Positions 7,708 to 18,600 of a stretch of 64,000 bases of DNA are shown here, piece after piece. A program made the translations under genes and the position numbers. The notes below the pieces were generated by a model. The model saw nothing but the letters and a program-made list of their open reading frames with translations, was not told the DNA's origin and searched no databases. Numbering within the stretch: position 1 is the first letter of the stretch; the number at the start of each line of letters is the position of its first letter. This DNA comes from a virus. The stretch is from positions 64,001 to 128,000 of the IMG/VR virus record IMGVR_UViG_3300009152_000030; one strand, 5' to 3'.

Positions 7708-9966
7708 ATGGAAAGACTCCCTTTACAGAAAAGACAAATCTTTTCGATAACAAATACGCAACAAGACATTACACTAGAAGAAGTTGGTTCTAGCGACAAT
7801 AAAGATGTAAACAAACTATCTAAAAATGAACTGGATGGTCTTATTAAAGATCTTCTTTCTGCAATAGAACCCAACAAAGAATATAATCAAATCTTAGATA
7901 GTAACCTTTACAATGGTAAGGCAAAGAATCTTGACTTTCTTGGAGTAGAAGCTTTGCGCAAGGAAAATAGAGAAGAAGCAAAACGACAAGCAGCTATTCT
8001 AGACAATTTTTTGAGAGTTACAGCAGAAAGATTAGAAGATATAAACTATAGTGTTGAGTATGCAAAAGAAGACCATGACCAATGTCTAGTTGCTAACTTT
8101 TTATTTCCTAATCATCAAAAAGGAAAATTAACTTATCAGGAAATCAAACAACTTAAACAATATACAAAGCTATATAGAGAACTTAAAGCTGATAATCAAT
8201 TAAGGTCTGCTACAAAAGATATAAAAAATGATCCAATGGTTGGAATGGATGAAGATGAAGATCTTAATTCAAAGTATGGTCAAGTAATTAAATTGGCTTA
8301 CGCTTACCAGACAGAAAAGACTGCTAAAAAAGATTATGATCCTGAGCCTAAAAAGACATTGGGAAAGATGGCGTCTGATTGGCTTAATGAGCTAGAAGAA
8401 GATAAGAGATTCAAAGTTTACGAAGAATTTGATATTTTTAGAGATATGTTTGGACTTGAAACAACTTTAGCTCAAAATGAAACAAAACTGAGTGAAGACA
8501 ATATTAGTGCAAAAGTTGGGTTGATACCTTTGTTTAATGAGGCCGAGAAGACTAGGGAAGTTGTTCATGGCATAGAGAGTACCCTTAATGGAATAGACAA
8601 GCAAAATAGTGCTATTGACGTCTTGATGAGAGGCAAAGAACCTTCAAATGTAAAGGCAAGAGCAATAGGAGAACCTGCTAAGAGTCTTGGAGATCTAGTA
8701 ACGAACTGGGAAGGTTGCTATGAGTGCTTTGGTGGGGAGTGGGCTAAGTTAGCAGACAAGTTAGGAGATATTAAAGGCCCAGGAGATATATTTAAAGGCA
8801 GTGACTTTGTATTTGGTGTTGATCTTGAAGTAAAACTTAAAGAGCAGTTAGCAATTACAAAAGCTCTTCTTGACAAAATAAGATTTGCTAGTGACATTGA
8901 GTTTCAGTTAAAAGCTAACTATTGCTCTCTTCTACGACTTGGCTCTTTGTGTCCTCTTGAATTATTGTTTGTTATTGCAAGCTTAGGTGGACTTCTAGTT
9001 TATACTTGGTCTGAGATATTCTCTGCAAATGCAAACTTTGGATTAAATTTTCTAAGAGATCTCATTTTACGTGGAGTTGTTGAGCCCCTTTTAAATCTTT
9101 TGCAAATGAGTATTCGTGCAAATATTAGTCCTTTGCCTAACTATGCTTTATGTACTATTAACAGTCTTATTAGTGTTCAAGACATTGATAAGGCTGGAAA
9201 GCAGTATGGATTTACAACTGAAGAACTTTCTAATTGGGTGAATTCAGGGACAGCAGAAGATGAAAGCAAAATAAGTGCGCTTACAAAATTTAGTGAAACA
9301 TACTTCAATAATAGCAATGGTCAAGTTGGCGTAGACCAGCAAGCCGTAGGAACAGCCTTAGAAGGGGCATTAAATAATAATGGTATGAAGTTTTTATCAA
9401 CAATAACAAATCCCCTTTTTGGTAAAGGCGATGCTCTTGACTCAATTGAAATGATCAAGTCTGTCATATACGACTTTATTGATTGGGTTTCTTCTCAGTC
9501 AGACATTGTAAAGTATGGCCTTGATGCCTTGAAGGCTTTGATGGGTACTCAAGCTGATACCAATATTGTTCTCTGTACAAAGATTATGGCTTTGTCTCAG
9601 ACTCTAGCCTTTGCTCTAGGAGTTTACAAAGCAGCAACCTCTAAGGGAATTGAACCTTGCATTCCTATGAAAGATGATAATGGTAACCTAACAAATGAAA
9701 GCCCATGGGATCCCTGGGATCCGGATCCTAATAGTGACTTTCCAATGAAGGAGTACTTCAATAGCCAACCTGTTTACCAGGAAAAGGCAAGGAATAACAA
9801 GAGTAACAAAAAGACAAAGCCGATTAGATATCTAATAAATCCTGCAACTGATAGTAGATTTAATCTTACCAATTGCGATAGAGCAAAATCGTCTATAATA
9901 AGCAAAGGTGAAAGTCTGGATTTCTGGAGACGAGTTGCATTAGGAGCAAACGTAGACAATGTTTAA
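7708..9966 (+). CDS. Hypothetical head-module protein: coiled N-half, Cys-containing hydrophobic C-half
   Basis: 752-aa ORF overlapping the portal start. Contains CYEC and CSLLRLGSLCP, plus the hydrophobic helix LLFVIASLGGLLVYTW. Confidence 0.5.
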   Translation: MERLPLQKRQIFSITNTQQDITLEEVGSSDNKDVNKLSKNELDGLIKDLLSAIEPNKEYNQILDSNLYNGKAKNLDFLGVEALRKENREEAKRQAAILDNFLRVTAERLEDINYSVEYAKEDHDQCLVANFLFPNHQKGKLTYQEIKQLKQYTKLYRELKADNQLRSATKDIKNDPMVGMDEDEDLNSKYGQVIKLAYAYQTEKTAKKDYDPEPKKTLGKMASDWLNELEEDKRFKVYEEFDIFRDMFGLETTLAQNETKLSEDNISAKVGLIPLFNEAEKTREVVHGIESTLNGIDKQNSAIDVLMRGKEPSNVKARAIGEPAKSLGDLVTNWEGCYECFGGEWAKLADKLGDIKGPGDIFKGSDFVFGVDLEVKLKEQLAITKALLDKIRFASDIEFQLKANYCSLLRLGSLCPLELLFVIASLGGLLVYTWSEIFSANANFGLNFLRDLILRGVVEPLLNLLQMSIRANISPLPNYALCTINSLISVQDIDKAGKQYGFTTEELSNWVNSGTAEDESKISALTKFSETYFNNSNGQVGVDQQAVGTALEGALNNNGMKFLSTITNPLFGKGDALDSIEMIKSVIYDFIDWVSSQSDIVKYGLDALKALMGTQADTNIVLCTKIMALSQTLAFALGVYKAATSKGIEPCIPMKDDNGNLTNESPWDPWDPDPNSDFPMKEYFNSQPVYQEKARNNKSNKKTKPIRYLINPATDSRFNLTNCDRAKSSIISKGESLDFWRRVALGANVDNV

Positions 9967-11488
9967 ATTAAAAGCACAAGTTATTAATCTAAAAAATCTT
10001 GCATCTTCTATTCAAATAATAGATGATGCGGAGAGTAAGATACCTGCGCCAAGTTTAGAAAAAACAAAAGATCCAGTATTTAACTATAGAACAACTCGTC
10101 CATACTTTATGAACGATTGGCAGAAATTAGAACATGATTTTAAGGAGATAGATAAAGTTGCTACCATTGAAGCTTATTTACAAATAAGCTTTGACAAGAA
10201 ACTATCTTTATTTATGAAAGAAGGTTATGAGGTTGTAGGTAAAGATCGAGATCTTGTAGAATACGTAGAGCGCCGCTTGAAGGAAGTTTGTTATGTTAGC
10301 CGGACTACACCTCGCCAGTTTATAACTGATATAGCCAAAAATATTATTAGATATAGTAATTGTTTTGTTCTTGTTAAACGAGATGATAAGACATCTGGCG
10401 GCTATACTAGAACAGACTCTAAAGGCCGCAAAATAGCCCCAATTAGCTCACTTCATGTACTTCCCACCAGTATGATCCAGGTTAAGGTGAACGACCTTAA
10501 GCAGCCCATAAAGTATCGACAATACAGTGAAGAAGACTGGACTGAGAATACTCGTCCTACTGCTATATATGAGCCTAATGAAATTATTCATTTCCATGTT
10601 AATAAGCTTGAAGGCTTTATTGTTGGTACTCCAAGATGCAGCGCAGCAATTGAAGATATTAAAGCTTTGCGTCGCATTGAAACAGATGTAGAAGTTTTAC
10701 TTCATCAAAGTATCTTTCCAATTGTCCAGTACAAGATTGGTACTGATGCCATGCCTGCTACTATTCTTCCAGATGGAAGAGATGAGATTAGTATGGTTAC
10801 TGAGGTTATTAATAATCAGCCACCTGAAGGTTTCTTTGTTACTCCTGAGCGTCATGAAATTAAAATGATTGGCGCAGAGGGTCGTTCGCTTAGAGCCGAA
10901 GGTTATCTTGACTATTTCAAGAAGCGTGTTCTTGCTGCGCTTGGTTTGTCTACGGTTGACATTGGTGAAGGCGATACTGCAAATAGATCAACTGCTGCGA
11001 CTATGTCTAGTAGTCTTATTAATGCAGTAAAGAGTGACCAGCTGGTTTTCGAAGAACAAATCTATGCTCATTTGATTGTTCCTCTTTTACAAGAAAGTGC
11101 TAAAGATAATAGCTTTGACTGGCTAGATCCAGACAATAAAGTTGTTTTAAGATTTAAAGAGATAGATGTTGAAAACCAAATAAAGAAAGAGAATGCTGCA
11201 ATTCAGCTTTGGTTGAACAGCGCCATCAGCCATGATGAGCTTAGAGATCGGATTGGTCTTTCTGCTGCTCAGGAAGATGACTGGGATCATTCTTATTACA
11301 AGATGGTTACAGAAGCCCAAGAGCTCTTGAAACTTGGAGCTAACGTAATGTCACCTATTGCAGAAACCTCTGCTAGAAGTGACAAAACACCTATGTCCTC
11401 GTCTGATTTAAATAAGGCAAGAGAACTACAAGCCAAGTCGGCTGCTAAATCTTCTGGGAAACCTGCTGTTAAAAAAAAAATTCGATAG
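9959..11488 (+). CDS. Portal protein
   Basis: Located between terL and the protease. Portal-like segments: SNCFVLVKR, LHVLPTSMI, EIIHFH...GTP, KRVLAALGL, AISHDELRDRIG. Ends just after an A10 run. Confidence 0.9.
   Translation: MFKLKAQVINLKNLASSIQIIDDAESKIPAPSLEKTKDPVFNYRTTRPYFMNDWQKLEHDFKEIDKVATIEAYLQISFDKKLSLFMKEGYEVVGKDRDLVEYVERRLKEVCYVSRTTPRQFITDIAKNIIRYSNCFVLVKRDDKTSGGYTRTDSKGRKIAPISSLHVLPTSMIQVKVNDLKQPIKYRQYSEEDWTENTRPTAIYEPNEIIHFHVNKLEGFIVGTPRCSAAIEDIKALRRIETDVEVLLHQSIFPIVQYKIGTDAMPATILPDGRDEISMVTEVINNQPPEGFFVTPERHEIKMIGAEGRSLRAEGYLDYFKKRVLAALGLSTVDIGEGDTANRSTAATMSSSLINAVKSDQLVFEEQIYAHLIVPLLQESAKDNSFDWLDPDNKVVLRFKEIDVENQIKKENAAIQLWLNSAISHDELRDRIGLSAAQEDDWDHSYYKMVTEAQELLKLGANVMSPIAETSARSDKTPMSSSDLNKARELQAKSAAKSSGKPAVKKKIR
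11471..11480 (+). other. Candidate -1 slippage site (A10) linking the portal to the downstream frame
   Basis: The -1 frame is closed by TAA at 11470-11472 and then open from 11473 to 12123. The portal stop is at 11486-11488. Confidence 0.6.
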
Positions 11489-12123
11489 CGTCTCCTAGCG
11501 GTAAAACTAATGCGAATGCCGTCAGACCATCAAATCAGCATGGTACTAAAAGCGGCCCAGGAAGTTTAGTTACGAATAGTATTCTGGACTTTGATGAGTA
11601 TCGAGAGGATGTGAATGGATTAGTTAGTCATCTTAAAGAAAAAGCTGACTACGACGTTCATCCTGAATTTACCATTGATGCCGCTTTTGAGCGTTTTTCT
11701 GTTATGCTTAAAGATAACAGTATTAAGGCATACATAAAGGGCTATTCTGAATATGCGGATTCTTCTAATTTAACTTCTGAGACTCACACCGGAAACATAG
11801 AGTTCCAGTTGAAGGTCCAGAAGTTTTTTATAGATAAGTTGCATATTGAAATGCGCAATCGCCAAGGCAATACTATAACTGACACAGCAAAGACTATAGG
11901 TCATAGAATGATGACTATCTATGAGACAGAAAGAATGAGAAGTTATAACTGGGGTGTTTTCAATGCGTTGAAGGATAGTGGCGAAGAATCATACCAGGTA
12001 TATAATCAAAGTAGTCAGTCTATAATAGATAATAGAAAAATCTCAGATAGTAAGTATTATGATTTACCGCCTGATCATCCTAATAGCAAAGTCATTATAA
12101 GGAAGGCTAATGAAGATAAGTAA
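11473..12123 (+). CDS. Mu gpF/SPP1 gp7-like head morphogenesis domain, probably a frameshift extension of the portal (alternative GTG start at 11611)
   Basis: TERMRSYNWG and LPPDHPNSK resemble the TE..A.N.G and PPxHPNCRC motifs of the gpF family, but without the cysteines. There are 46 open codons upstream of the GTG. Confidence 0.6.
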   Translation, partial: KKNSIASPSGKTNANAVRPSNQHGTKSGPGSLVTNSILDFDEYREDVNGLVSHLKEKADYDVHPEFTIDAAFERFSVMLKDNSIKAYIKGYSEYADSSNLTSETHTGNIEFQLKVQKFFIDKLHIEMRNRQGNTITDTAKTIGHRMMTIYETERMRSYNWGVFNALKDSGEESYQVYNQSSQSIIDNRKISDSKYYDLPPDHPNSKVIIRKANEDK

Positions 12124-14848
12124 GAGACTATTACAAGAAGGTATTGTTCAGGACTATTTTGTTAATAGTGTTAAGGGTGATTTTACTCATGAAGTCTGGG
12201 ACAAGAAAAGCCCACACTTTCTTGATTTTAAATACTTTATTAGTGATGGCGTAGCAGAGAACAAGGTTGGTCTAGTAACTCTTACAAAGGTTACTCATGG
12301 GATGAGGCCCACTCAAAATAATCTTATCTATATGCCGTCTGATCTTAAAGACGCAATCCCTACACTTACTAACCCATACAACATTCCTATTAAGCCTATG
12401 CATAAGGAAGTTGCAGTTGTTGATGGTAAGAAAATTGAAAATAGAGAGGTAGGTGCAGTTGGCCGTGCAATTGGTGGAACTTGGGTAGACAACCCTAAGG
12501 CTGCTTATAATGTTAGCTCTACAATGATCAAGGATGGCCTTATGCTTAAGGCTCCTGACGTTGCTATGGCTCCCTATATGAAGAAGTTTGCTAAGTCTGG
12601 AATGATGACTGATGAGGATTTTGAAGGCCTTGGATGGGTACTCGTCAAGGGACTTGTTACGGATCCAGAGGCTGTAGAGAAAACTCTTGATGGGCGCTAT
12701 CTTACAGTTAGCGTTGAAATGACTCCTAATGATCTTTATGATTCTATTAGCGGCAGATCATACAAGACTGACGAAATGGAATGGGATATTGGTGATGACA
12801 TTGATGGCGTTAAAGCTTATGGTGTACCAAGTGGTCTTCGTTACCGTGGCTATGCTTACGTTACACATCCTGCCGACGTTCATGCCAGAGTAATGAATTA
12901 TAAAGAGGTTGGAGGCGATGCTCTTCAGCAATATCTAGATAACTTCAAGACTACTATGGTAATGACTGATTGTTTCAAGAATGCTGTTACTGATATTAGT
13001 GACTCAGAGATTATGGCAAGCTTTGACAATGGTCCAGTTGCAACAATACCAGTTGAAATTGTAGAAGATCATGCTGATCTTTATACTCAACTTTCAGAAG
13101 AAGAAAAAGCTTTGGCTGATTCTTTGATGACTCTTGCTAGTAAAGTCGGACCTCTTGATAAAGCTCCTGGTATTTGGGTTGGCTATGAAAGTGGCCCAGA
13201 GAATGAAAATCTTAGCATTGGTGTTAAGTGCGGAAACTGTGCGCTTCATGCCAGCGAGAATCGTTGTAAAATTATTTCCCAAACCATAGAGCCAAATGGC
13301 TACTGCAGATTTGCTGTTATTCCAGACGGACTTGTAACAGCAAACAAGATAGAACCTATGGAAGACCAAGCCAACCTAACTAATCAAGAGGAGCAAGAAA
13401 TGCCCAGCGTACTATCAGAAGACAATAAGAAGGAAATCCTTTCAATTGTTGACGAATACATTAAGTTAAAGTCTGTTGTTCCTGTAGAAGTAATTTCAGA
13501 ACTTGAAGAGCTACGCTCTGGTAAAGCTATTGCAGATGAAAAGCTTGCTAAAGTTGAACTTGATACTAAGTCACTACTAGACTCTGTTAAAGAGTTTCTT
13601 GCTAGTAACTTCAATGTAGAACTAGCCGATGATATGTCAGCTGAGATGTTTTCTGAGATGGTCAAAACAATCACTATTGATGATGCCGTCTGGACAACTG
13701 CTTACGTTAACAATCTTCCAGATAGTTCATTCTTCTATATCACTCCAGGTGGCGAGAAAGATGAAGAGGGCAAGACTAAGCCTCGTTCACTTCGCCATCT
13801 TCCATACAAGGGAGACGATGGTAAGGTTGATCTTCCTCATCTTCGTAATGCAATTGCTAGAGCACCTCAGGTTAGTGGTCTTGCACCTGAGAAGGTTAAG
13901 TCAATCCAGTCTCGTGCCCAGAAGATGCTTGCACGTATGCAAGATGCTGGCAAGTCCAAGATGGATGAGAGTGAATTTGGTGAAGATATTCAAGATTTAT
14001 TTGGTCCAGAAATGGATGATGAGGCTCAGGGTTTTGTGCCTACACCTGGTATGGCGTCAGCTGCAAAACGTGCTCTTGAGTGGCGTGCAGAGTTTAAGCG
14101 CGGTGGTACTGGCGTAGGCGTAGCGCGTGCACGAGATATTATCAATAAGAAAGAGCTTTCTCCTTCTACTGTTATGCGTATGAAGAGTTTCTTTGCACGT
14201 CATGAAGTTGACAAGAAAGCTTCTGGCTTCAATCAAGGCGAAGAAGGTTTTCCTTCTCCTGGTCGTATTGCTTGGGATCTTTGGGGAGGCGATGGTGGCA
14301 AGAGCTGGGCAAATGCTAAAGCTGCTCAAGTTGAACGTATGAGAGCTGAAGATTCCGTAAAGGGTCCTTGGGTTATGGGCGACTTTGTTTACAATGAGCC
14401 CGCTACTGAGTCTACAATTGAAACTGCAGTTGAAGATGCGTATACTCCAGAAAAGACTTATACAACTCCATCTACTCCCACATTTGCAGTTGGTGATTTT
14501 GTTGCCTATCGTCTTGATAGCAAGGGTAATGAAGTTGGTATTAGTTCAGGTTCACTTGGTGAACAGGATGACGCAGTTGAAATGAAAGAAGGATATGGAG
14601 TGATTGATGCTATGCATAGCAAAGGAACTGTTACTCATGGTCCTGGTCTAAGTGTAGATGCATCAGAGGAAGATCCTGCTACTATTCTTACTATTGCTAA
14701 GATGGGTGAAGATGGCTTGTATGACAAGACTGAGGAAGTAACTGTCAAGAAGAGGTCTGAGCTAAGAAAGATTATGGCTCCTATTGTGTGGAGTAAGAAA
14801 GAGACTCCTCCGCTTGGCGCTTATCCTGCTCCTGGTATAGGTGGCTAA
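12110..14848 (+). CDS. Prohead (capsid maturation) protease with several appended domains
   Basis: N-terminal protease-like region (PMH, AVGR, LDGRYLTVSV, YVTHPAD), located after the portal. Followed by a CxxC..C..C domain, a coiled coil and three more compact domains. Confidence 0.8.
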   Translation: MKISKRLLQEGIVQDYFVNSVKGDFTHEVWDKKSPHFLDFKYFISDGVAENKVGLVTLTKVTHGMRPTQNNLIYMPSDLKDAIPTLTNPYNIPIKPMHKEVAVVDGKKIENREVGAVGRAIGGTWVDNPKAAYNVSSTMIKDGLMLKAPDVAMAPYMKKFAKSGMMTDEDFEGLGWVLVKGLVTDPEAVEKTLDGRYLTVSVEMTPNDLYDSISGRSYKTDEMEWDIGDDIDGVKAYGVPSGLRYRGYAYVTHPADVHARVMNYKEVGGDALQQYLDNFKTTMVMTDCFKNAVTDISDSEIMASFDNGPVATIPVEIVEDHADLYTQLSEEEKALADSLMTLASKVGPLDKAPGIWVGYESGPENENLSIGVKCGNCALHASENRCKIISQTIEPNGYCRFAVIPDGLVTANKIEPMEDQANLTNQEEQEMPSVLSEDNKKEILSIVDEYIKLKSVVPVEVISELEELRSGKAIADEKLAKVELDTKSLLDSVKEFLASNFNVELADDMSAEMFSEMVKTITIDDAVWTTAYVNNLPDSSFFYITPGGEKDEEGKTKPRSLRHLPYKGDDGKVDLPHLRNAIARAPQVSGLAPEKVKSIQSRAQKMLARMQDAGKSKMDESEFGEDIQDLFGPEMDDEAQGFVPTPGMASAAKRALEWRAEFKRGGTGVGVARARDIINKKELSPSTVMRMKSFFARHEVDKKASGFNQGEEGFPSPGRIAWDLWGGDGGKSWANAKAAQVERMRAEDSVKGPWVMGDFVYNEPATESTIETAVEDAYTPEKTYTTPSTPTFAVGDFVAYRLDSKGNEVGISSGSLGEQDDAVEMKEGYGVIDAMHSKGTVTHGPGLSVDASEEDPATILTIAKMGEDGLYDKTEEVTVKKRSELRKIMAPIVWSKKETPPLGAYPAPGIGG

Positions 14849-14870: not shown

Positions 14871-14915
14871 CACTATGTAATTATTAATTTAACTTAATCC
14901 TTTTGGAGGAATAAT

Positions 14916-15728
14916 ATGGAAACTGAAATGACACCTGGCGCTAGCCAAGTAGCTGATGCCCTTGAAGATCTACTTTGTAACGTAGTAGTTTTCTACTTCT
15001 CTGCTCATCGTGCACACTGGAATGTAGCTGGTCCTGACTTTACTGAATATCATCAACTTTTTGGAGCTATCTATGATGACGTTTTTGAGTCAATAGATGA
15101 TCTTGCTGAGAACATTCGTAAGCTTGGTGAGTTTCCTCCTGCTCTTGGTCATATAGTAGAGACGGCATCATTTAAAGATGATTCTACGACTACCGAAGCA
15201 AAAGAACTTGCTCTCGACATTTATAAAAAGAATGTTACTATGATTGCAATGCTTAAGGCTGCTTTTGATGCTTGTAATGCTGCAAACGAACAAGGCGTTG
15301 CTAATTTTGTTGCTGAGCGTATTGATATGCATCAGAAGTGGCAATGGCAACTTGGTTCTTCTTTGCAGACTGCTGGTATGCAAATTCCAGTTGAAGATCC
15401 TGCGCAAGAAGTTACAGAAGAGATGAGTGGTCCTATGGATTCTGCAGAAGAAGCAACAACTGAGATTACAGATAGTTCAGAGTCAGAAGAGATTCTTATT
15501 GAGGATTCTGCTGAGCCTAAAGAGCTGGGTAAGAAGCTTGATGTGAATACCATTGAAGACGCAATAGATACTACAGAGGAATACTACACATCTGTAGAGC
15601 GCAGAGTGGCTAGTAAATACAAAGAATTACGAAATCATGATATAAATAAAGCTGAGAACTATCTTGTTCAACAAGTGCGTTCTGGCTTTGTTTCAGGAAA
15701 GTTTAACCCACTAGATGTGAAAGTCTAA
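14916..15728 (+). CDS. dps: Dps family ferritin-like protein with an acidic C-terminal extension
   Basis: Ferroxidase signature HWNVAGPDFTEYHQLF...DDLAENIRKLG and C-terminal helix HQKWQWQL. About 120 extra residues follow, mostly acidic. GGAGG RBS. Confidence 0.9.
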   Translation: METEMTPGASQVADALEDLLCNVVVFYFSAHRAHWNVAGPDFTEYHQLFGAIYDDVFESIDDLAENIRKLGEFPPALGHIVETASFKDDSTTTEAKELALDIYKKNVTMIAMLKAAFDACNAANEQGVANFVAERIDMHQKWQWQLGSSLQTAGMQIPVEDPAQEVTEEMSGPMDSAEEATTEITDSSESEEILIEDSAEPKELGKKLDVNTIEDAIDTTEEYYTSVERRVASKYKELRNHDINKAENYLVQQVRSGFVSGKFNPLDVKV

Positions 15729-15749: not shown

Positions 15750-17282
15750 ATGGCAACATACAGAAAGTTTAGAGATATCGATTACGGTAAGCCGATTATT
15801 GCCCCTACGCACGGCGACACAGTTGCCCCTCAGAATGACCTTGCCGCTGCGGCTTGGCTTCCTGTCAATGGCAGCGATGCAAACACAGCAATGGGATTCC
15901 ATTCATATGACTACCAACGTCACGTCTTTACCGACAAGATTGTTATTATGCCCGGCAAGCTTGTTGCTCTTACTCGTGAGTCACTTACAGATAGCGGCGC
16001 TGGCCTTGCTGAAATCAATAAGGGTAGTGTTGGCCGTCTAGTCCCCGCTGGTGTTCGTCTTGCCTGGAAGGCTGCGGCTGACACTGTGGATGTTGTCCTT
16101 GAGTATACTGCAGCTGACGTTGCTGAACGCATTGAAGATCTTGGCACTGGTCTACCAGTTGAAGGCGCGAAGACCTATACCAAGCTAGTCCTTGCTGAAA
16201 AGCTTCGTGAGCGTGGTTTACTTACCCCATCAGAGACACTTGATGCCTTTATCTCTCGTCCAATTGGTGTAGCTGCTAACGTGGTTTACGCTTGGGCCGG
16301 TGGTGATGGTACGCAGCCTAAGGGCCTTCGTTTCATGAATTATCGTCGTGAGAACAAGTCAACGTTCTGGACTGGTCAGGACCACACTCTTCGTCTTCCA
16401 GTTGCGCCAGCTAAGTCCTATGACATAGTCAATCTTACCATTGATGGTGATCCTTATGATGCTAGCGCCTCATGGGATGCAACTAAGAAGCTTGTTGTTT
16501 GCGGTGCAGGCAATACTGTTGGTGCTGCATCGGCAACAACAATTGCTCATTTCTACCATGCTACAGATGTTGCTAAAAAGGCTACTTATGCTCAATTAAC
16601 AACTGCCTTTGACAGCCGTTATGCTGCTCTTGCAACAAGCGCAACAGGTCTTGTCATTGCACTTGGTCATCAAGGTGTTGAGTCTAATATTTACAATACT
16701 ATTGAAGTTTGGACTGCTACTTACTCAGGCGGTGACACACTAGTCAAGGGTACAAGCATTACTTCAACTTGGCTAAAGTCCGAGAAGACAAGCCCTGCTG
16801 GTGTTAAAGCTGTAGGCGATTATTTTGTGGATCGTGATCTTGGCCTTCTTTTTGTAGAGGCTAGTTTCCCAGCCACTGGTAATACGGCTATTGGTTTCCG
16901 TCTTGCTGCTGATACCGAAGCATATACAGGTAATGTTTTTGCTGCTGTTGGTAAGGCTGTCAAGCCTGGCGACTATCTTGCTTATGACAGATTTTCAAAC
17001 TTTGTTCCTTACATTGCTCGTCCTGACGAGACCGATAATAATAACGGTGGGTCAGTAGACACTGTTGCTACGGCATTCCATCGTCCAGAGGACATTGTTG
17101 GTAAGTGCTATACTCTTGATCGTTCACCTAAGGCTGATCTTGCTACCGTCAAGACTTTCCATGATTATGAAGGCGTGTCACTCGCTGATCGTACTCCTGG
17201 TTCGGCTAATGACGGTCATCCTGCAGAAATTCATCAATCACTTGGTGGTCAGTTCGCTGCCATCGTGCGCGTCCTACTCTAA
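15750..17282 (+). CDS. Capsid decoration/structural protein
   Basis: Immediately upstream of the MCP. Has IVIMPGKLVAL, PIGVA and VKPGDYL motifs typical of beta-tulip-like decoration proteins, and high-expression codon usage. Confidence 0.65.
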   Translation: MATYRKFRDIDYGKPIIAPTHGDTVAPQNDLAAAAWLPVNGSDANTAMGFHSYDYQRHVFTDKIVIMPGKLVALTRESLTDSGAGLAEINKGSVGRLVPAGVRLAWKAAADTVDVVLEYTAADVAERIEDLGTGLPVEGAKTYTKLVLAEKLRERGLLTPSETLDAFISRPIGVAANVVYAWAGGDGTQPKGLRFMNYRRENKSTFWTGQDHTLRLPVAPAKSYDIVNLTIDGDPYDASASWDATKKLVVCGAGNTVGAASATTIAHFYHATDVAKKATYAQLTTAFDSRYAALATSATGLVIALGHQGVESNIYNTIEVWTATYSGGDTLVKGTSITSTWLKSEKTSPAGVKAVGDYFVDRDLGLLFVEASFPATGNTAIGFRLAADTEAYTGNVFAAVGKAVKPGDYLAYDRFSNFVPYIARPDETDNNNGGSVDTVATAFHRPEDIVGKCYTLDRSPKADLATVKTFHDYEGVSLADRTPGSANDGHPAEIHQSLGGQFAAIVRVLL

Positions 17283-17316: not shown

Positions 17317-18600
17317 ATGTCAAGACTAAAGCACAAGAACCTAGAAATTGCTGATCAGAGTGAGCTTACAGCGCTCATCAAGAACAACGGTTGGCTTCCT
17401 GGCTCAGACCACTCCAGCGACTCACGTCTTTCAATTGAAGACGCGATTACGTCAGCTGAGCTTGGGCCCTGGGTCAAGCACTCAATTGTTGAGATTATGA
17501 TGGAGCCAATGGAGCCCATGATGAACCTTACCCCACTCCTTGATACCATTCCTGCGCCGGATGGTATTACTGAGTTCCGCCTTCCTGCCCTTTCAGCTTT
17601 CACTGTCCATAAGGTCACTGAGCTTGAAGGTTACCGTGAAGAGCGTGTGACAACTGGCGGTGGTATGGCTACGGCCGCCATCGACAAGTGGGGTGTTATG
17701 ATCTCCCTTACGCAAGAGGCTATCAAGGCTTCCAACTGGAATCTCCTTGGTTATCTTGCCCGTGAGGCTGGTCGTGCTTTCGCTCGCCGCAAGGAGACCG
17801 AAATCGCTAAGCATATCACGAATATCAGCGTTCCTGCGTTTGACAATCTTAATCCTACTCAGTCAGCTCTTGGTATCACGACTGGTCGTGACATCACGAT
17901 GAAGACCAATGGTACTCTTACCATGGATGACCTCTTCAACGCTTATCATCTTCTCATTCAGAGAGGCTTTACCCCTGATACGCTTATCTGCCATCCTCTT
18001 ACGTACCTTATGTTTGTCCGCGACCCCGTCCTTCGTGCATTTGCAATGCAGAGCGGCAGCGGCAATCTCTTTGGCAACTATTCGGGTTCAGCCGCTAACG
18101 TTACCGGTGTTCCTGACGCCGTTAAGGGTGTTCTTTCAAAGGGTTACTCACGCGGTCAGCTTGGTACTGGTGCCGATGGCTCCAAGGCCTCGCTTAAGGA
18201 CTTCAACGTTAATGCCATTACAGCTGCTCCTAACCTTCCTCTTGGTCTTCCGTTTGGCCTTCGCATCGTGACCTCACGCTTCATGCCTTACGATCCTGCT
18301 ACTAAGCTTACCGATATTGTTCTTTGCGATAGCAAGTCACTTGGTGCTCTAATCGTTGGTTCAGGCATTGTTGCTGACGAGTGGGAGGACAAGTACTTTG
18401 AGACCTTCAAGATGAAGTGGTCAGAGAAGTGGGGTATCTTTATGTATAACGAAGGCCAGGGTCTAGTTACGCTTAAGAATATCTTCTGCGACCAGAACTT
18501 CTACTCGCCTGAAATTGCACGTCCTTACTACAATGTTACTGACGGTAGTTTTGATCCTGCTGGCACTGACGTTGATGGTGGCTCTAACTTCCCTGGTTAA
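17317..18600 (+). CDS. Major capsid protein (HK97-fold)
   Basis: 427 aa. Contains KWGVMISLTQEAI, AGRAFARRKE and FTPDTLICHP. TAAGGAG RBS, strong codon bias, followed by a terminator. Confidence 0.9.
   Translation: MSRLKHKNLEIADQSELTALIKNNGWLPGSDHSSDSRLSIEDAITSAELGPWVKHSIVEIMMEPMEPMMNLTPLLDTIPAPDGITEFRLPALSAFTVHKVTELEGYREERVTTGGGMATAAIDKWGVMISLTQEAIKASNWNLLGYLAREAGRAFARRKETEIAKHITNISVPAFDNLNPTQSALGITTGRDITMKTNGTLTMDDLFNAYHLLIQRGFTPDTLICHPLTYLMFVRDPVLRAFAMQSGSGNLFGNYSGSAANVTGVPDAVKGVLSKGYSRGQLGTGADGSKASLKDFNVNAITAAPNLPLGLPFGLRIVTSRFMPYDPATKLTDIVLCDSKSLGALIVGSGIVADEWEDKYFETFKMKWSEKWGIFMYNEGQGLVTLKNIFCDQNFYSPEIARPYYNVTDGSFDPAGTDVDGGSNFPG

What the first reader, a model, noticed from the sequence alone, without database searches (positions are those of the whole stretch)
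14916..15728. Dps ferritin fused to a scaffold-like tail in the capsid operon: possible capsid-loaded iron/ROS shield
Seen: a complete Dps domain (about 14943-15365) retaining its His/Asp/Glu ferroxidase ligands. It sits between the prohead protease and decoration/MCP genes, where a scaffold gene normally lies. It carries a very acidic linker and ends in an amphipathic/basic helix (YKELRNHDINKAENYLVQQVRSGFVSGKFNP). Known: Dps forms dodecamers that oxidise Fe2+ and protect DNA. Scaffolds such as P22's bind coat protein through a C-terminal helix. HK97-fold encapsulins load ferritin-like cargo via terminal targeting peptides. Inference: this phage packs Dps into the prohead in an encapsulin-like way, to protect packaged DNA from Fenton damage, carry iron, or act as an oligomeric scaffold core.
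Basis: partly seen in the sequence, partly recalled or inferred. Interest (0 to 1): 0.88.

Follow-up and report, generated by a model that had tools for sequence, protein, structure and literature searches.

The report
Dps mini-ferritin carrying scaffold capsid-binding tail
An uncultured 174-kb aquatic phage joins an intact iron-oxidising Dps "mini-ferritin" to the short end-piece that its relatives carry at the tip of their capsid protease-scaffold protein, so the phage most likely loads Dps into its assembling head; nobody has yet measured this.

Summary
ORF 14916-15728 (+) encodes 270 aa in three parts:
- an intact Dps domain (aa 9-152), with the His/His/Asp/Glu ferroxidase ligands invariant in 29 orthologues;
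- a disordered acidic linker;
- a C-terminal helix-turn-helix that is better conserved than the Dps domain.

The gene lies between a 912-aa protein and the decoration-like and major capsid genes. That protein's N-terminus matches the prohead protease of Bacillus phage 0305phi8-36. The order is the same in every related contig that reaches far enough.

The last ~48 aa are homologous to the extreme C-termini of protease-scaffold proteins in relatives that lack Dps (hhalign 95% probability, E 1.7e-8). A profile built only from those relatives finds one site in the whole 174-kb genome, and it is this tail.

In other uncultured phages the same Dps clade sits inside protease-scaffold proteins or is fused to S78 or XkdF head proteases.

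Best reading: Dps is carried into the prohead on the lineage's scaffold tail. Binding to the capsid protein, presence in virions and iron chemistry are all untested. A tail-plus-capsid-protein co-fold gave no verdict. Notes from this scan record related Dps-head fusions on other DNA. I found no paper describing this.

The parts
14905..14910 (+). GGAGGA ribosome-binding site, 5 nt before the ATG of the Dps-tail gene
   Evidence: Read directly in the sequence.
14916..15728 (+). Dps-tail gene (P0001, 270 aa; the stop codon is included)
   Evidence: ORF list and translation. More than 50 full-length orthologues of 259-289 aa have the same architecture.
14940..15371 (+). Dps four-helix-bundle domain, aa 9-152, with ferroxidase ligands H34, H46, D61 and E65
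   Evidence: Pfam PF00210 at E 2.7e-15. PDB Dps hits. AlphaFold2 pLDDT about 95 and Foldseek TM 0.86-0.93 to Dps structures. The ligands are invariant.
15372..15578 (+). Acidic, length-variable, disordered linker, aa 153-221. It includes a conserved KELGKKLD box at aa 202-209.
   Evidence: 16 acidic and 0 basic residues in aa 153-200. pLDDT about 30 over aa 161-220. The linker is 47% identical on average, against 71% for the Dps domain and 87% for the tail.
15579..15725 (+). Scaffold-type C-terminal module, aa 222-270: a helix-turn-helix (226-241, 243-256) plus a terminal GFVSGKFNP-type peptide
   Evidence: hhalign against the C-termini of protease-scaffold proteins from Dps-lacking relatives gives probability 95.4% and E 1.7e-8. 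The reciprocal profile hits only window 15579-15710 in the whole genome, at E 3.4e-4. The family's tail profile matches the very ends of L029/L030/L032. Model pLDDT is 84-89.
12110..14848 (+). Upstream 912-aa head protein P0122. It has a prohead-protease domain (aa about 50-271, window 12257-12922), a Cys-rich and coiled-coil segment, a phrog_2859 domain (aa 645-743), and a C-terminal region that looked Tudor-like by eye only (no Pfam or PHROG hit).
   Evidence: BLASTP to 0305phi8-36 gp123 protease/scaffold gives E 6e-11. Alignment A8 has an invariant His, a DGR..T.SV segment and a PAD motif. phrog_2859 matches at E 1.2e-29. The protein is collinear with the single 778-aa protein of the sister clade. 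It has neither the tail motif nor a gp123-type scaffold domain.
15750..17282 (+). 510-aa protein P0123 in the decoration-protein slot, immediately downstream
   Evidence: It occupies the same slot as 0305phi8-36 gp124 and ME3 gp021 and matches ME3 gp021 weakly (E 0.001). Homologues sit in this slot across the surveyed loci. It is hypervariable (55-93% identical) where the capsid protein is 95-99% identical.
17317..18600 (+). Major capsid protein (427 aa, HK97 fold, no long N-terminal delta domain)
   Evidence: Pfam PF25209 at E 1.4e-10. tblastn to the capsid proteins of phages ME3 and 0305phi8-36.
9959..11488 (+). Portal protein
   Evidence: phrog_9232 at E 2.5e-36. 33% identical to the ME3 portal, E 4e-69.

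Best explanation
P0001 is a cargo-on-scaffold-tail protein.

**What relatives have.** In this 0305phi8-36-like head module, relatives make a single protein: protease, then a coiled-coil scaffold, then a short C-terminal helix-turn-helix motif.

**What this clade has.** That unit is split. The protease and several passenger domains form the 912-aa upstream protein. The C-terminal motif is attached through a flexible acidic linker to an intact Dps mini-ferritin.

**Inferred mechanism.**
1. During late expression from the head operon, the tail docks on the inner face of assembling capsid protein. This is what the shared C-termini of protease and scaffold proteins do in lambda, Mu, P2, P22 and HK97.
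2. Dps is thereby enclosed in the prohead. It probably enters as a dodecamer with up to 12 outward-pointing tails, which would make it multivalent.
3. Once inside it could act as an oligomeric scaffold node. It could also stay there as an iron-oxidising, peroxide-consuming internal head protein that protects the packaged DNA or travels with it.

**Shown here:** the domain structure, the homology of the tail to scaffold C-termini, the synteny, and recurrent in-frame fusions elsewhere.

**Inferred only:** binding to the capsid protein, encapsidation, dodecamer formation, what happens to Dps at maturation, and its enzymatic role.
For: 1. **Tail homology, forward direction.** hhalign of the window-family tail (A2) against the C-termini of protease-scaffold proteins from 14 Dps-lacking relatives (A9) gives probability 95.4% and E 1.7e-8, aligning P0001 222-269 end to end. 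The tail profile matches the last ~50 aa of the 778-aa protease-scaffold ORFs of L029/L030/L032 at E 2e-5 to 8e-5.
2. **Tail homology, reciprocal direction.** The A9 profile contains no window-family sequence. It hits one place in the 174-kb genome in six frames, window 15579-15710, at E 3.4e-4.
3. **Specificity control.** The same tail against a different helical scaffold C-terminus, the gp123 type (A7), scores 0.14% probability.
4. **Collinearity.** The sister-clade protein L029 (778 aa) aligns to P0122 7-353 and 642-748, and then to P0001 224-259.
5. **No other scaffold.** The genome has no gp123-type scaffold domain and no second copy of the tail.
6. **Synteny.** The order portal, 170-aa gene, 912-aa protein, Dps-tail, 510-aa protein, capsid protein is kept in L004, in every one of the 18 capsid-protein-recruited IMG/VR loci that extends far enough upstream, and in further loci recruited with the protease.
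7. **Independent fusions of the same Dps clade.**
   - Dps with Peptidase_S78, lying between the portal and capsid protein genes (P0090 E 1.6e-37; P0185; P0186).
   - XkdF protease, Dps and Tudor (P0187).
   - About 30 clusters of roughly 620-aa proteins. Their N-termini match the P0122 protease and their C-termini match the gp123* scaffold. One of them lies in a head module.
8. **Conservation pattern.** The tail is 87% identical on average across 28 orthologues. The Dps domain is 71% and the linker 47%.
9. **Ferroxidase ligands.** They are invariant.
Against: - There is no direct evidence of binding or encapsidation.
- A plain profile search of 1.84 billion proteins found the tail only in its own family. 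The link to scaffold C-termini therefore rests on profile-profile and small-database searches of a short helical segment.
- P0001 has no coiled-coil scaffold body.
- The upstream protease protein lacks the tail motif, so how the protease itself enters the head is unexplained.
- An assembled Dps dodecamer of about 9 nm could neither leave a closed shell nor pass the portal. That raises an unanswered question about its fate.
- Some free-standing phage Dps genes of this clade lie outside recognisable head modules.
Confidence: 0.62

Rival explanations
1. P0001 is simply this phage's scaffolding protein. The Dps domain serves only as a stable 12-mer hub that presents 12 capsid-binding tails. The protein is degraded or expelled before DNA packaging. 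Mature virions then carry no Dps, and there is no iron or DNA-protection role.
For: P0001 holds the only copy of the lineage's scaffold C-terminal motif in the genome. No gp123-type scaffold domain is present anywhere. The capsid protein has no long delta domain, since the Pfam match starts near aa 62-70. P0001 sits in the scaffold slot.
Against: The four ferroxidase ligands are invariant across orthologues that are only 54-60% identical overall, which points to selection on catalysis. The upstream P0122 keeps a coiled-coil segment at aa 416-501 that aligns weakly with the sister clade's scaffold body (E 0.02) and could still supply scaffolding. In other lineages Dps is added to complete protease-scaffold proteins, so there it is a passenger and not the scaffold.
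Confidence: 0.2
2. P0001 is a cytoplasmic auxiliary gene. It would be a late-expressed Dps that lowers Fenton damage or manages iron in the infected cell. On this view the tail serves another purpose, such as self-association or regulation, and the position in the head operon only provides late timing.
For: Phage Dps genes have been read this way in gut phages (PMC8008677). Several free-standing Dps genes of roughly 160 aa from the same clade exist, and one lies outside a recognisable head module. The whole protein is acidic (pI 4.4) and has no Lys-rich DNA-binding tail.
Against: This view does not explain the tail's homology to scaffold C-termini. It does not explain why the tail is more conserved than the enzyme domain. 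It does not explain the strict position between protease and capsid genes. It does not explain the repeated in-frame fusions to head proteases and scaffolds.
Confidence: 0.12
3. The tail binds a head component other than the capsid protein, such as the portal, the 912-aa protease protein or the 510-aa decoration-slot protein. Dps would then be placed at a special site, for example the portal vertex or the outer surface, and not throughout the interior.
For: Nothing here identifies the partner. The co-fold gave no verdict. The protease protein lacks its own tail motif and may need an adaptor.
Against: In the well-studied systems (my own knowledge: P22 gp8, lambda C/Nu3, Mu I/Z, P2 gpO, the HK97 protease) the C-terminus of scaffold and protease-scaffold proteins contacts the capsid protein. 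The 510-aa protein is hypervariable while the tail is highly conserved, which argues against that protein as the partner.
Confidence: 0.06

Closest known systems
Bacillus phage 0305phi8-36 gp123/gp123* (nested protease/scaffold) and the equivalent single protease-scaffold proteins of uncultured relatives (L027, L029-L032, L070, L072, L082, L083)
   Same: The head-module order is the same: portal, protease(-scaffold), decoration protein, capsid protein. The P0122 N-terminus is homologous to the gp123 protease. The P0001 tail is homologous to the C-terminal motif of the nearer relatives' protease-scaffold proteins.
   Different: Here the unit is split into two genes. The coiled-coil scaffold body before the C-terminal motif is replaced by a Dps domain plus an acidic linker. 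The tail is not detectably related to the gp123 C-terminus itself.
P22 scaffolding protein gp8: its C-terminal helix-turn-helix coat-binding domain, and engineered P22 particles loaded with cargo fused to that domain
   Same: A small C-terminal helix-turn-helix with basic residues follows a flexible region (model). The engineered system shows that fusing a cargo to a scaffold C-terminus is enough to encapsidate it (review PMC8939255).
   Different: No sequence homology was tested or claimed. The P22 case is man-made, whereas this is a natural gene conserved in a phage lineage. Binding has not been shown here.
Encapsulin ferritin-like cargo (for example the Thermotoga maritima Flp) loaded through a C-terminal targeting peptide
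   Same: A ferroxidase-type four-helix-bundle protein is directed by a C-terminal extension into an HK97-fold shell (PMC8939255).
   Different: The shell here is a DNA-packaging phage capsid. The cargo is Dps (a 12-mer mini-ferritin), not Flp. The address is a roughly 48-aa scaffold-derived helix-turn-helix, not a short peptide. No encapsulin family hit was found.
Bacterial Dps (E. coli Dps, Listeria Dps, P. aeruginosa PA0962 / 8ff9)
   Same: The fold and the His/His/Asp/Glu inter-subunit ferroxidase ligands match.
   Different: There is a 118-aa C-terminal extension and no Lys-rich DNA-binding tail. The protein is very acidic (pI 4.4). Gly replaces the carboxylate four residues after the second His. 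The gene sits in a phage head operon.
Capsid-targeted passengers in other phages: the HK97 protease C-terminal encapsidation signal and the T4 capsid-targeting sequence of internal proteins (my own knowledge; Duda et al. 2013 is listed in the references of PMC12749128)
   Same: A short terminal signal, shared with or derived from the assembly machinery, carries a non-structural protein into the prohead.
   Different: The passenger here is an iron-oxidising cage protein. The signal is the lineage's scaffold C-terminus. No processing site has been identified.

Membership tests
Dps (DNA-binding protein from starved cells; Pfam PF00210 ferritin-like, Dps subfamily) | Four-helix bundle with a short helix in the long BC loop | tested here: met
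   AlphaFold2 gives helices 9-36, 42-69, 77-83, 95-122 and 126-152 at pLDDT about 95. Foldseek TM (target) is 0.86-0.93 with rmsd 1.2-1.5 A to Dps crystal structures.
Dps (DNA-binding protein from starved cells; Pfam PF00210 ferritin-like, Dps subfamily) | Inter-subunit ferroxidase ligands His, His, Asp and Glu with 12/15/4 spacing | tested here: met
   H34, H46, D61 and E65 align with the ligand columns of solved Dps proteins. They are invariant in 29 orthologues.
Dps (DNA-binding protein from starved cells; Pfam PF00210 ferritin-like, Dps subfamily) | Additional carboxylate four residues after the second His (Asp in Listeria and E. coli Dps; recalled from my own knowledge) | tested here: not met
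   This position is an invariant Gly (G50) in the whole family. The residue is not universal among Dps proteins, so this alone does not exclude activity.
Dps (DNA-binding protein from starved cells; Pfam PF00210 ferritin-like, Dps subfamily) | Assembly into a hollow dodecamer, with iron oxidation and storage | not tested
Activity needs the bench.
Scaffold / protease-scaffold proteins of 0305phi8-36-like head modules | Gene lies between the protease domain and the decoration and capsid genes | tested here: met
Scaffold / protease-scaffold proteins of 0305phi8-36-like head modules | Lineage-specific C-terminal motif at the extreme C-terminus | tested here: met
   hhalign probability 95.4%, E 1.7e-8. 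HMM hits at the ORF ends of L029/L030/L032. A single reciprocal hit in the whole genome.
Scaffold / protease-scaffold proteins of 0305phi8-36-like head modules | Extended coiled-coil scaffold body | tested here: not met
   P0001 has a disordered acidic linker (pLDDT about 30) and no long helix between Dps and the tail. The gp123-type scaffold profile finds nothing in the window or the genome.
Scaffold / protease-scaffold proteins of 0305phi8-36-like head modules | Binds the capsid protein and is present in proheads | not testable with these tools
   The co-fold job returned no verdict. This needs co-expression or proteomics.
Encapsulin cargo-loading peptides | Short C-terminal targeting peptide next to a non-viral encapsulin shell gene | tested here: not met
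   The shell gene is a phage capsid protein in a complete 174-kb virus record with terminase, portal and tail genes. The address is a roughly 48-aa helix-turn-helix. The resemblance is functional only.
Peptidase_S78 / HK97-type prohead protease (for the upstream P0122) | Significant match to the S78 family profile | tested here: inconclusive
   There is no Pfam hit. hhalign to S78 domains of the Dps fusions is not significant. P0122 is clearly homologous to the gp123 protease of 0305phi8-36 (E 6e-11), whose record says it was identified with HK97 gp4 / P2 gpO models. The fold prediction failed with pLDDT 28.6.

The most novel reading that the evidence does not exclude
The Dps dodecamer, with twelve scaffold tails on flexible acidic tethers, is itself the nucleating scaffold hub of this capsid. 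It then remains trapped in the DNA-filled head as a natural cage within a cage. There it oxidises Fe2+ and consumes peroxide next to the genome. That would make this and many other aquatic phages iron-bearing particles with built-in protection against oxidative damage.
Probability: 0.2. Interest if true: 0.88.

Novelty: new variant of a known kind. Interest (0 to 1): 0.7.

Why it matters
**Capsid loading.** Loading proteins into capsids through scaffold or protease termini is known. So is loading ferritin-like cargo into encapsulins. I did not find a natural phage gene described that puts a complete Dps mini-ferritin on the lineage's own scaffold tail.

**If Dps is encapsidated:**
- It would be a new class of internal head protein with redox and iron chemistry.
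- It would bear on how phage DNA survives in sunlit, oxic, iron-poor waters.
- It would bear on how much iron aquatic virus particles carry.
- It would be a natural counterpart of engineered nested protein cages.

**Scaffold biology.** The comparison also pins down a compact, portable capsid-addressing module of about 48 aa. It shows that one ancestral protease-scaffold gene has been cut and refilled with different passenger domains in different lineages. That gives direct material for studying how scaffold proteins tolerate cargo.

Tried and rejected
- **Co-fold of the capsid protein with the tail** (alignments A10 and A2): no verdict, score 0.00, controls not run. I do not count it either way.
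- **Profile search of the tail against 1.84 billion representative proteins**: it found only the gene's own family (P0034) and two short entries. P0125 begins at the edge of its contig. P0107 carries a non-Dps N-terminus.
- **Tail against the gp123-type scaffold C-terminus** (hhalign): unrelated, probability 0.14%.
- **Pfam and PHROG scans of the tail alone**: nothing.
- **Tail profile against all ORFs of the window**: no second copy.
- **Structure prediction of P0122 aa 1-300** with a shallow alignment: failed, pLDDT 28.6, so no fold search was made.
- **hhalign of the P0122 N-terminus against S78 domains**: not significant.
- **The search for related loci with the single L027 protein**: no match. 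The alignment-based scan worked.
- **Co-variation of tail and capsid-protein divergence**: uninformative. The tail simply tracks the Dps domain of the same gene (r 0.97).
- **Megablast of the head module against GenBank phages**: no close cultured relative.
- **DNA-binding tail, as in E. coli or mycobacterial Dps:** rejected. The protein is strongly acidic and the extension is neutral.
- **Frameshift or read-through fusion of P0122 with P0001:** rejected. The frames differ, and 67 nt containing stop codons and a separate strong ribosome-binding site separate the genes.
Full report
**1. What is there**

The ORF at 14916-15728 (+) is open for 270 aa. It starts at an ATG 5 nt downstream of a GGAGGA site.

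Residues 14-152 match Pfam Ferritin PF00210 (E 2.7e-15) and PHROG 3636 (E 1.9e-24). The nearest solved proteins are all Dps, with 8ff9 best at E 1.5e-18.

An AlphaFold2 model built on 29 orthologues gives a four-helix bundle for aa 9-152 at pLDDT about 95. It superposes on Dps crystal structures with TM 0.86-0.93 normalised to the target and rmsd 1.2-1.5 A.

The ferroxidase ligands H34, H46, D61 and E65 have the canonical spacing. They are invariant in all 29 sequences, including those only 54-60% identical overall. The position four residues after the second His is an invariant Gly.

After the domain comes a linker. Residues 153-200 hold 16 acidic and no basic residues. The linker varies in length between orthologues and is disordered in the model (pLDDT about 30 over 161-220). 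The model then shows two helices, 226-241 and 243-256, at pLDDT 84-89, followed by an extended end.

Averaged over 28 orthologues, identity to the window protein differs by region:

| Region | Mean identity |
|---|---|
| Last 49 aa (tail) | 87% |
| Dps domain | 71% |
| Linker | 47% |

**2. Genomic setting**

The window is bases 64001-128000 of a 174,117-bp virus record that CheckV rates as 100% complete. The record has one Dps gene.

The local gene order is:
- large terminase candidate (7708-9966);
- portal (9959-11488);
- a 170-aa gene;
- the 912-aa protein P0122;
- the Dps-tail gene P0001;
- the 510-aa protein P0123;
- an HK97-fold major capsid protein (17317-18600);
- a 72-aa gene;
- a Big_5 protein.

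The nearest cultured relatives by capsid protein and portal are the jumbo myophages Acinetobacter ME3 and Bacillus 0305phi8-36. The order in 0305phi8-36 is portal, gp123 protease/scaffold (with a nested gp123* scaffold), gp124 decoration protein, gp125 capsid protein.

P0122 residues 50-271 align with the gp123 protease region at E 6e-11. A four-way alignment shows an invariant His, a DGR..T.SV segment and a PAD motif. Pfam S78 does not recognise this domain and profile comparison with S78 domains was not significant. I therefore call it the gp123-type prohead protease, not an S78 member.

P0123 occupies the decoration slot. It is hypervariable (55-93% identical) in phages whose capsid proteins are 95-99% identical.

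**3. Synteny**

The order portal, 170, 912, Dps-tail, 510, capsid protein is kept wherever the contig reaches that far. This holds for L004, for the 18 IMG/VR loci found with the capsid protein, and for further loci found with the protease. The gene is therefore not at unrelated loci in close relatives.

**4. The decisive comparison**

I collected 80 viral loci that encode the P0122/gp123-type protease (alignment A8) and annotated them with profiles for protease, Dps, tail, gp123-type scaffold, decoration protein and capsid protein.

- Distant members have a single protease ORF of 413-727 aa that also carries the gp123-type scaffold domain.
- Nearer relatives lack Dps (capsid protein 46-47% identical; L027, L029-L032, and also L061, L070, L072, L077, L082, L083). 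They have one 547-778-aa ORF with the protease at the front, a coiled coil, and a shared short motif at the extreme C-terminus: an aromatic residue then Glu, an A-E-x-Y-L core, and a G-F-H/N-P-like end.

The window-family tail profile matches the last ~50 residues of L029/L030/L032 at E 2e-5 to 8e-5.

Profile-profile comparison of the tail family (A2) with the 14 C-termini from Dps-lacking phages (A9) gives 95.4% probability and E 1.7e-8. It aligns P0001 222-269 with the ends of those proteins.

In the reverse direction, the A9 profile contains no window-family sequence. It finds exactly one place in the whole genome in six frames, window 15579-15710 (P0001 222-265), at E 3.4e-4.

As a specificity control, the tail against the unrelated helical gp123-type scaffold C-terminus scores 0.14%.

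The sister-clade 778-aa protein is collinear with the two window genes taken together. Its protease matches P0122 7-353, its phrog_2859 domain matches P0122 642-748, and its C-terminus matches P0001 224-259.

The genome has no gp123-type scaffold domain and no second copy of the tail.

It came out in favour, although a plain sequence-profile search of 1.84 billion proteins had missed it.

**5. Dps and head machinery elsewhere**

The closest Dps domains outside the gene's own family (50-64% identical) sit inside head-assembly proteins:
- Dps with Peptidase_S78 (P0090, P0099, P0185, P0186; S78 at E 1.6e-37 and 1.9e-49). P0090 lies directly between the portal and the capsid protein gene.
- S78 and XkdF protease signatures, then DUF6321, then Dps, then a coiled-coil tail (P0130; about 18 related clusters with DUF6321).
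- XkdF protease, Dps and Tudor (P0187).
- Dps, then a P0122-like middle segment, then DUF5824 (P0184).
- The phrog_2859 domain followed by Dps (P0058, P0061, P0185).
- About 30 clusters of 597-654-aa proteins. Their N-termini are homologous to the P0122 protease. Their C-terminal 130 aa align with the gp123* scaffold at 30% identity, pairwise E 6e-5. One of them lies upstream of a 251-aa gene and a capsid protein gene.

Different lineages end these proteins with different short conserved C-terminal peptides. This is as expected if each matches its own capsid protein.

Dps is therefore a recurrent passenger of protease-scaffold proteins. The window clade is the variant in which the passenger and the tail have become a separate gene.

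**6. Mechanism**

It is established for lambda C/Nu3, Mu I/Z, P2 gpO, P22 gp8 and the HK97 protease that the C-terminus of scaffold or protease-scaffold proteins contacts the capsid protein and is what gets the protein enclosed. This is my own knowledge. The HK97 paper is listed in the references of PMC12749128 but could not be opened. Fusing foreign cargo to the P22 scaffold C-terminus is a standard way to fill P22 particles (PMC8939255).

By homology and position I infer that the P0001 tail docks on the inner capsid surface and carries Dps into the prohead. In solved Dps dodecamers both termini lie on the outer surface (my own knowledge). A 12-mer would therefore display up to 12 tails on tethers of about 70 residues, making a multivalent particle that could also help nucleate assembly.

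Three points are open:
- whether Dps is then degraded, trapped or ejected;
- whether the 912-aa protease protein, which lacks the tail motif, needs P0001 or something else to enter the head;
- whether P0122's own coiled-coil segment still supplies scaffolding.

The invariant ferroxidase ligands argue that catalysis matters, not merely oligomerisation.

**7. Rivals**

- A pure scaffold role with no function in the virion (0.20).
- A cytoplasmic auxiliary Dps whose tail does something else (0.12).
- Docking to a partner other than the capsid protein (0.06).

Evidence for and against each is given in the rival-explanations section.

**8. Comparison with what is known, and novelty**

I searched the held literature for Dps with prohead protease, scaffold, virion, encapsulin cargo or jumbo phage. 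I found no description of a Dps joined to phage head-assembly proteins. One paper treats phage DPS genes as auxiliary oxidative-stress enzymes (PMC8008677).

This scan has noted related things before on other DNA:
- two first-reader notes on what appear to be orthologues (e1-5645114, e1-5645101);
- follow-up reports on Dps inside a head-protease polyprotein (e1-5345744);
- a mini-Dps next to capsid genes (e1-3296063).

The tail-to-scaffold homology was not mentioned in the excerpts I saw.

I classify the finding as a new variant of a known kind: capsid loading through a scaffold or protease terminus, with a cargo type and split-gene form I did not find described. Interest 0.7.

**9. Limits**

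- Everything about binding, encapsidation, oligomer state and chemistry is inferred.
- The tail homology rests on a short helical segment, although three searches agree and the control is negative.
- The co-fold job gave no verdict and is not used as evidence.

Noticed in passing
window 12110-14848 (P0122): The 912-aa protease protein is a chain of modules: protease, a Cys-rich segment, a coiled coil, a phrog_2859 domain at aa 645-743, and a C-terminal region that looked Tudor-like by eye only. In other phages some of these modules are fused directly to Dps: the phrog_2859 domain in P0058, P0061 and P0185, and the aa 327-491 segment in P0184. Pfam Tudor domains are also fused to Dps elsewhere (P0115, P0187). 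This suggests a shared pool of capsid-delivered passenger domains. P0122 itself lacks the scaffold tail motif, so how it enters the head is unexplained.
   Followed up: partly
L006:145-651 (protein P0107, on a 1,873-bp metagenome contig): The same conserved tail module is attached here to about 85 aa of unrelated, non-Dps sequence. The gene lies directly upstream of a homologue of the 510-aa protein. The foreign part matches nothing in the window or in the other loci (tblastx). It is either an alternative cargo on the same tail or a chimeric assembly.
   Followed up: partly
window 11611-12123 (170-aa gene) versus L027:4516-6657: The small gene after the portal is homologous to the C-terminal ~80 aa of the longer (713-aa) portal ORF of the Dps-lacking relative L027 (E 1e-13). 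The portal gene therefore seems to be split in this clade. The stop-to-stop frame is 216 codons, so the true start may lie upstream of the GTG.
   Followed up: no
window 7708-9966 versus L004, L011-L013, L016, L026: The terminase-like 752-aa protein is only 29-33% identical in phages whose portal and capsid proteins are 78-99% identical to the window's. In L015 and L020 it is 93% and 77% identical. This points to module exchange at the terminase-portal boundary.
   Followed up: no
window 15750-17282 (P0123): The decoration-slot protein varies from 55 to 93% identity among phages whose capsid proteins are 95-99% identical. That fits a surface-exposed protein under diversifying selection or frequent recombination.
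   Followed up: no
L007/L008:8001-9119 (P0089) and L007:9210 onward: In freshwater phage contigs of up to about 126 kb, a Dps of this clade carries a different ~200-aa C-terminal domain. It sits between a 571-586-aa gene and a giant ORF of more than 3,341 aa, downstream of the terminase. It occurs on at least 24 contigs.
   Followed up: no
P0094 and P0098 (379 and 427 aa): These Dps domains are flanked on both sides by CxxC-rich, zinc-ribbon-like segments and a proline-rich N-terminus. This is yet another architecture of the same phage Dps clade.
   Followed up: no
window 15519-15542 (P0001 aa 202-209): A KELGKKLD box at the start of the tail module is nearly invariant. A K-x-L-G element precedes the C-terminal helices in many Dps-lacking relatives too, for example KALGD, KQLGS and NSLGE. 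It could be part of the binding module or a maturation-protease site. It was not tested.
   Followed up: no
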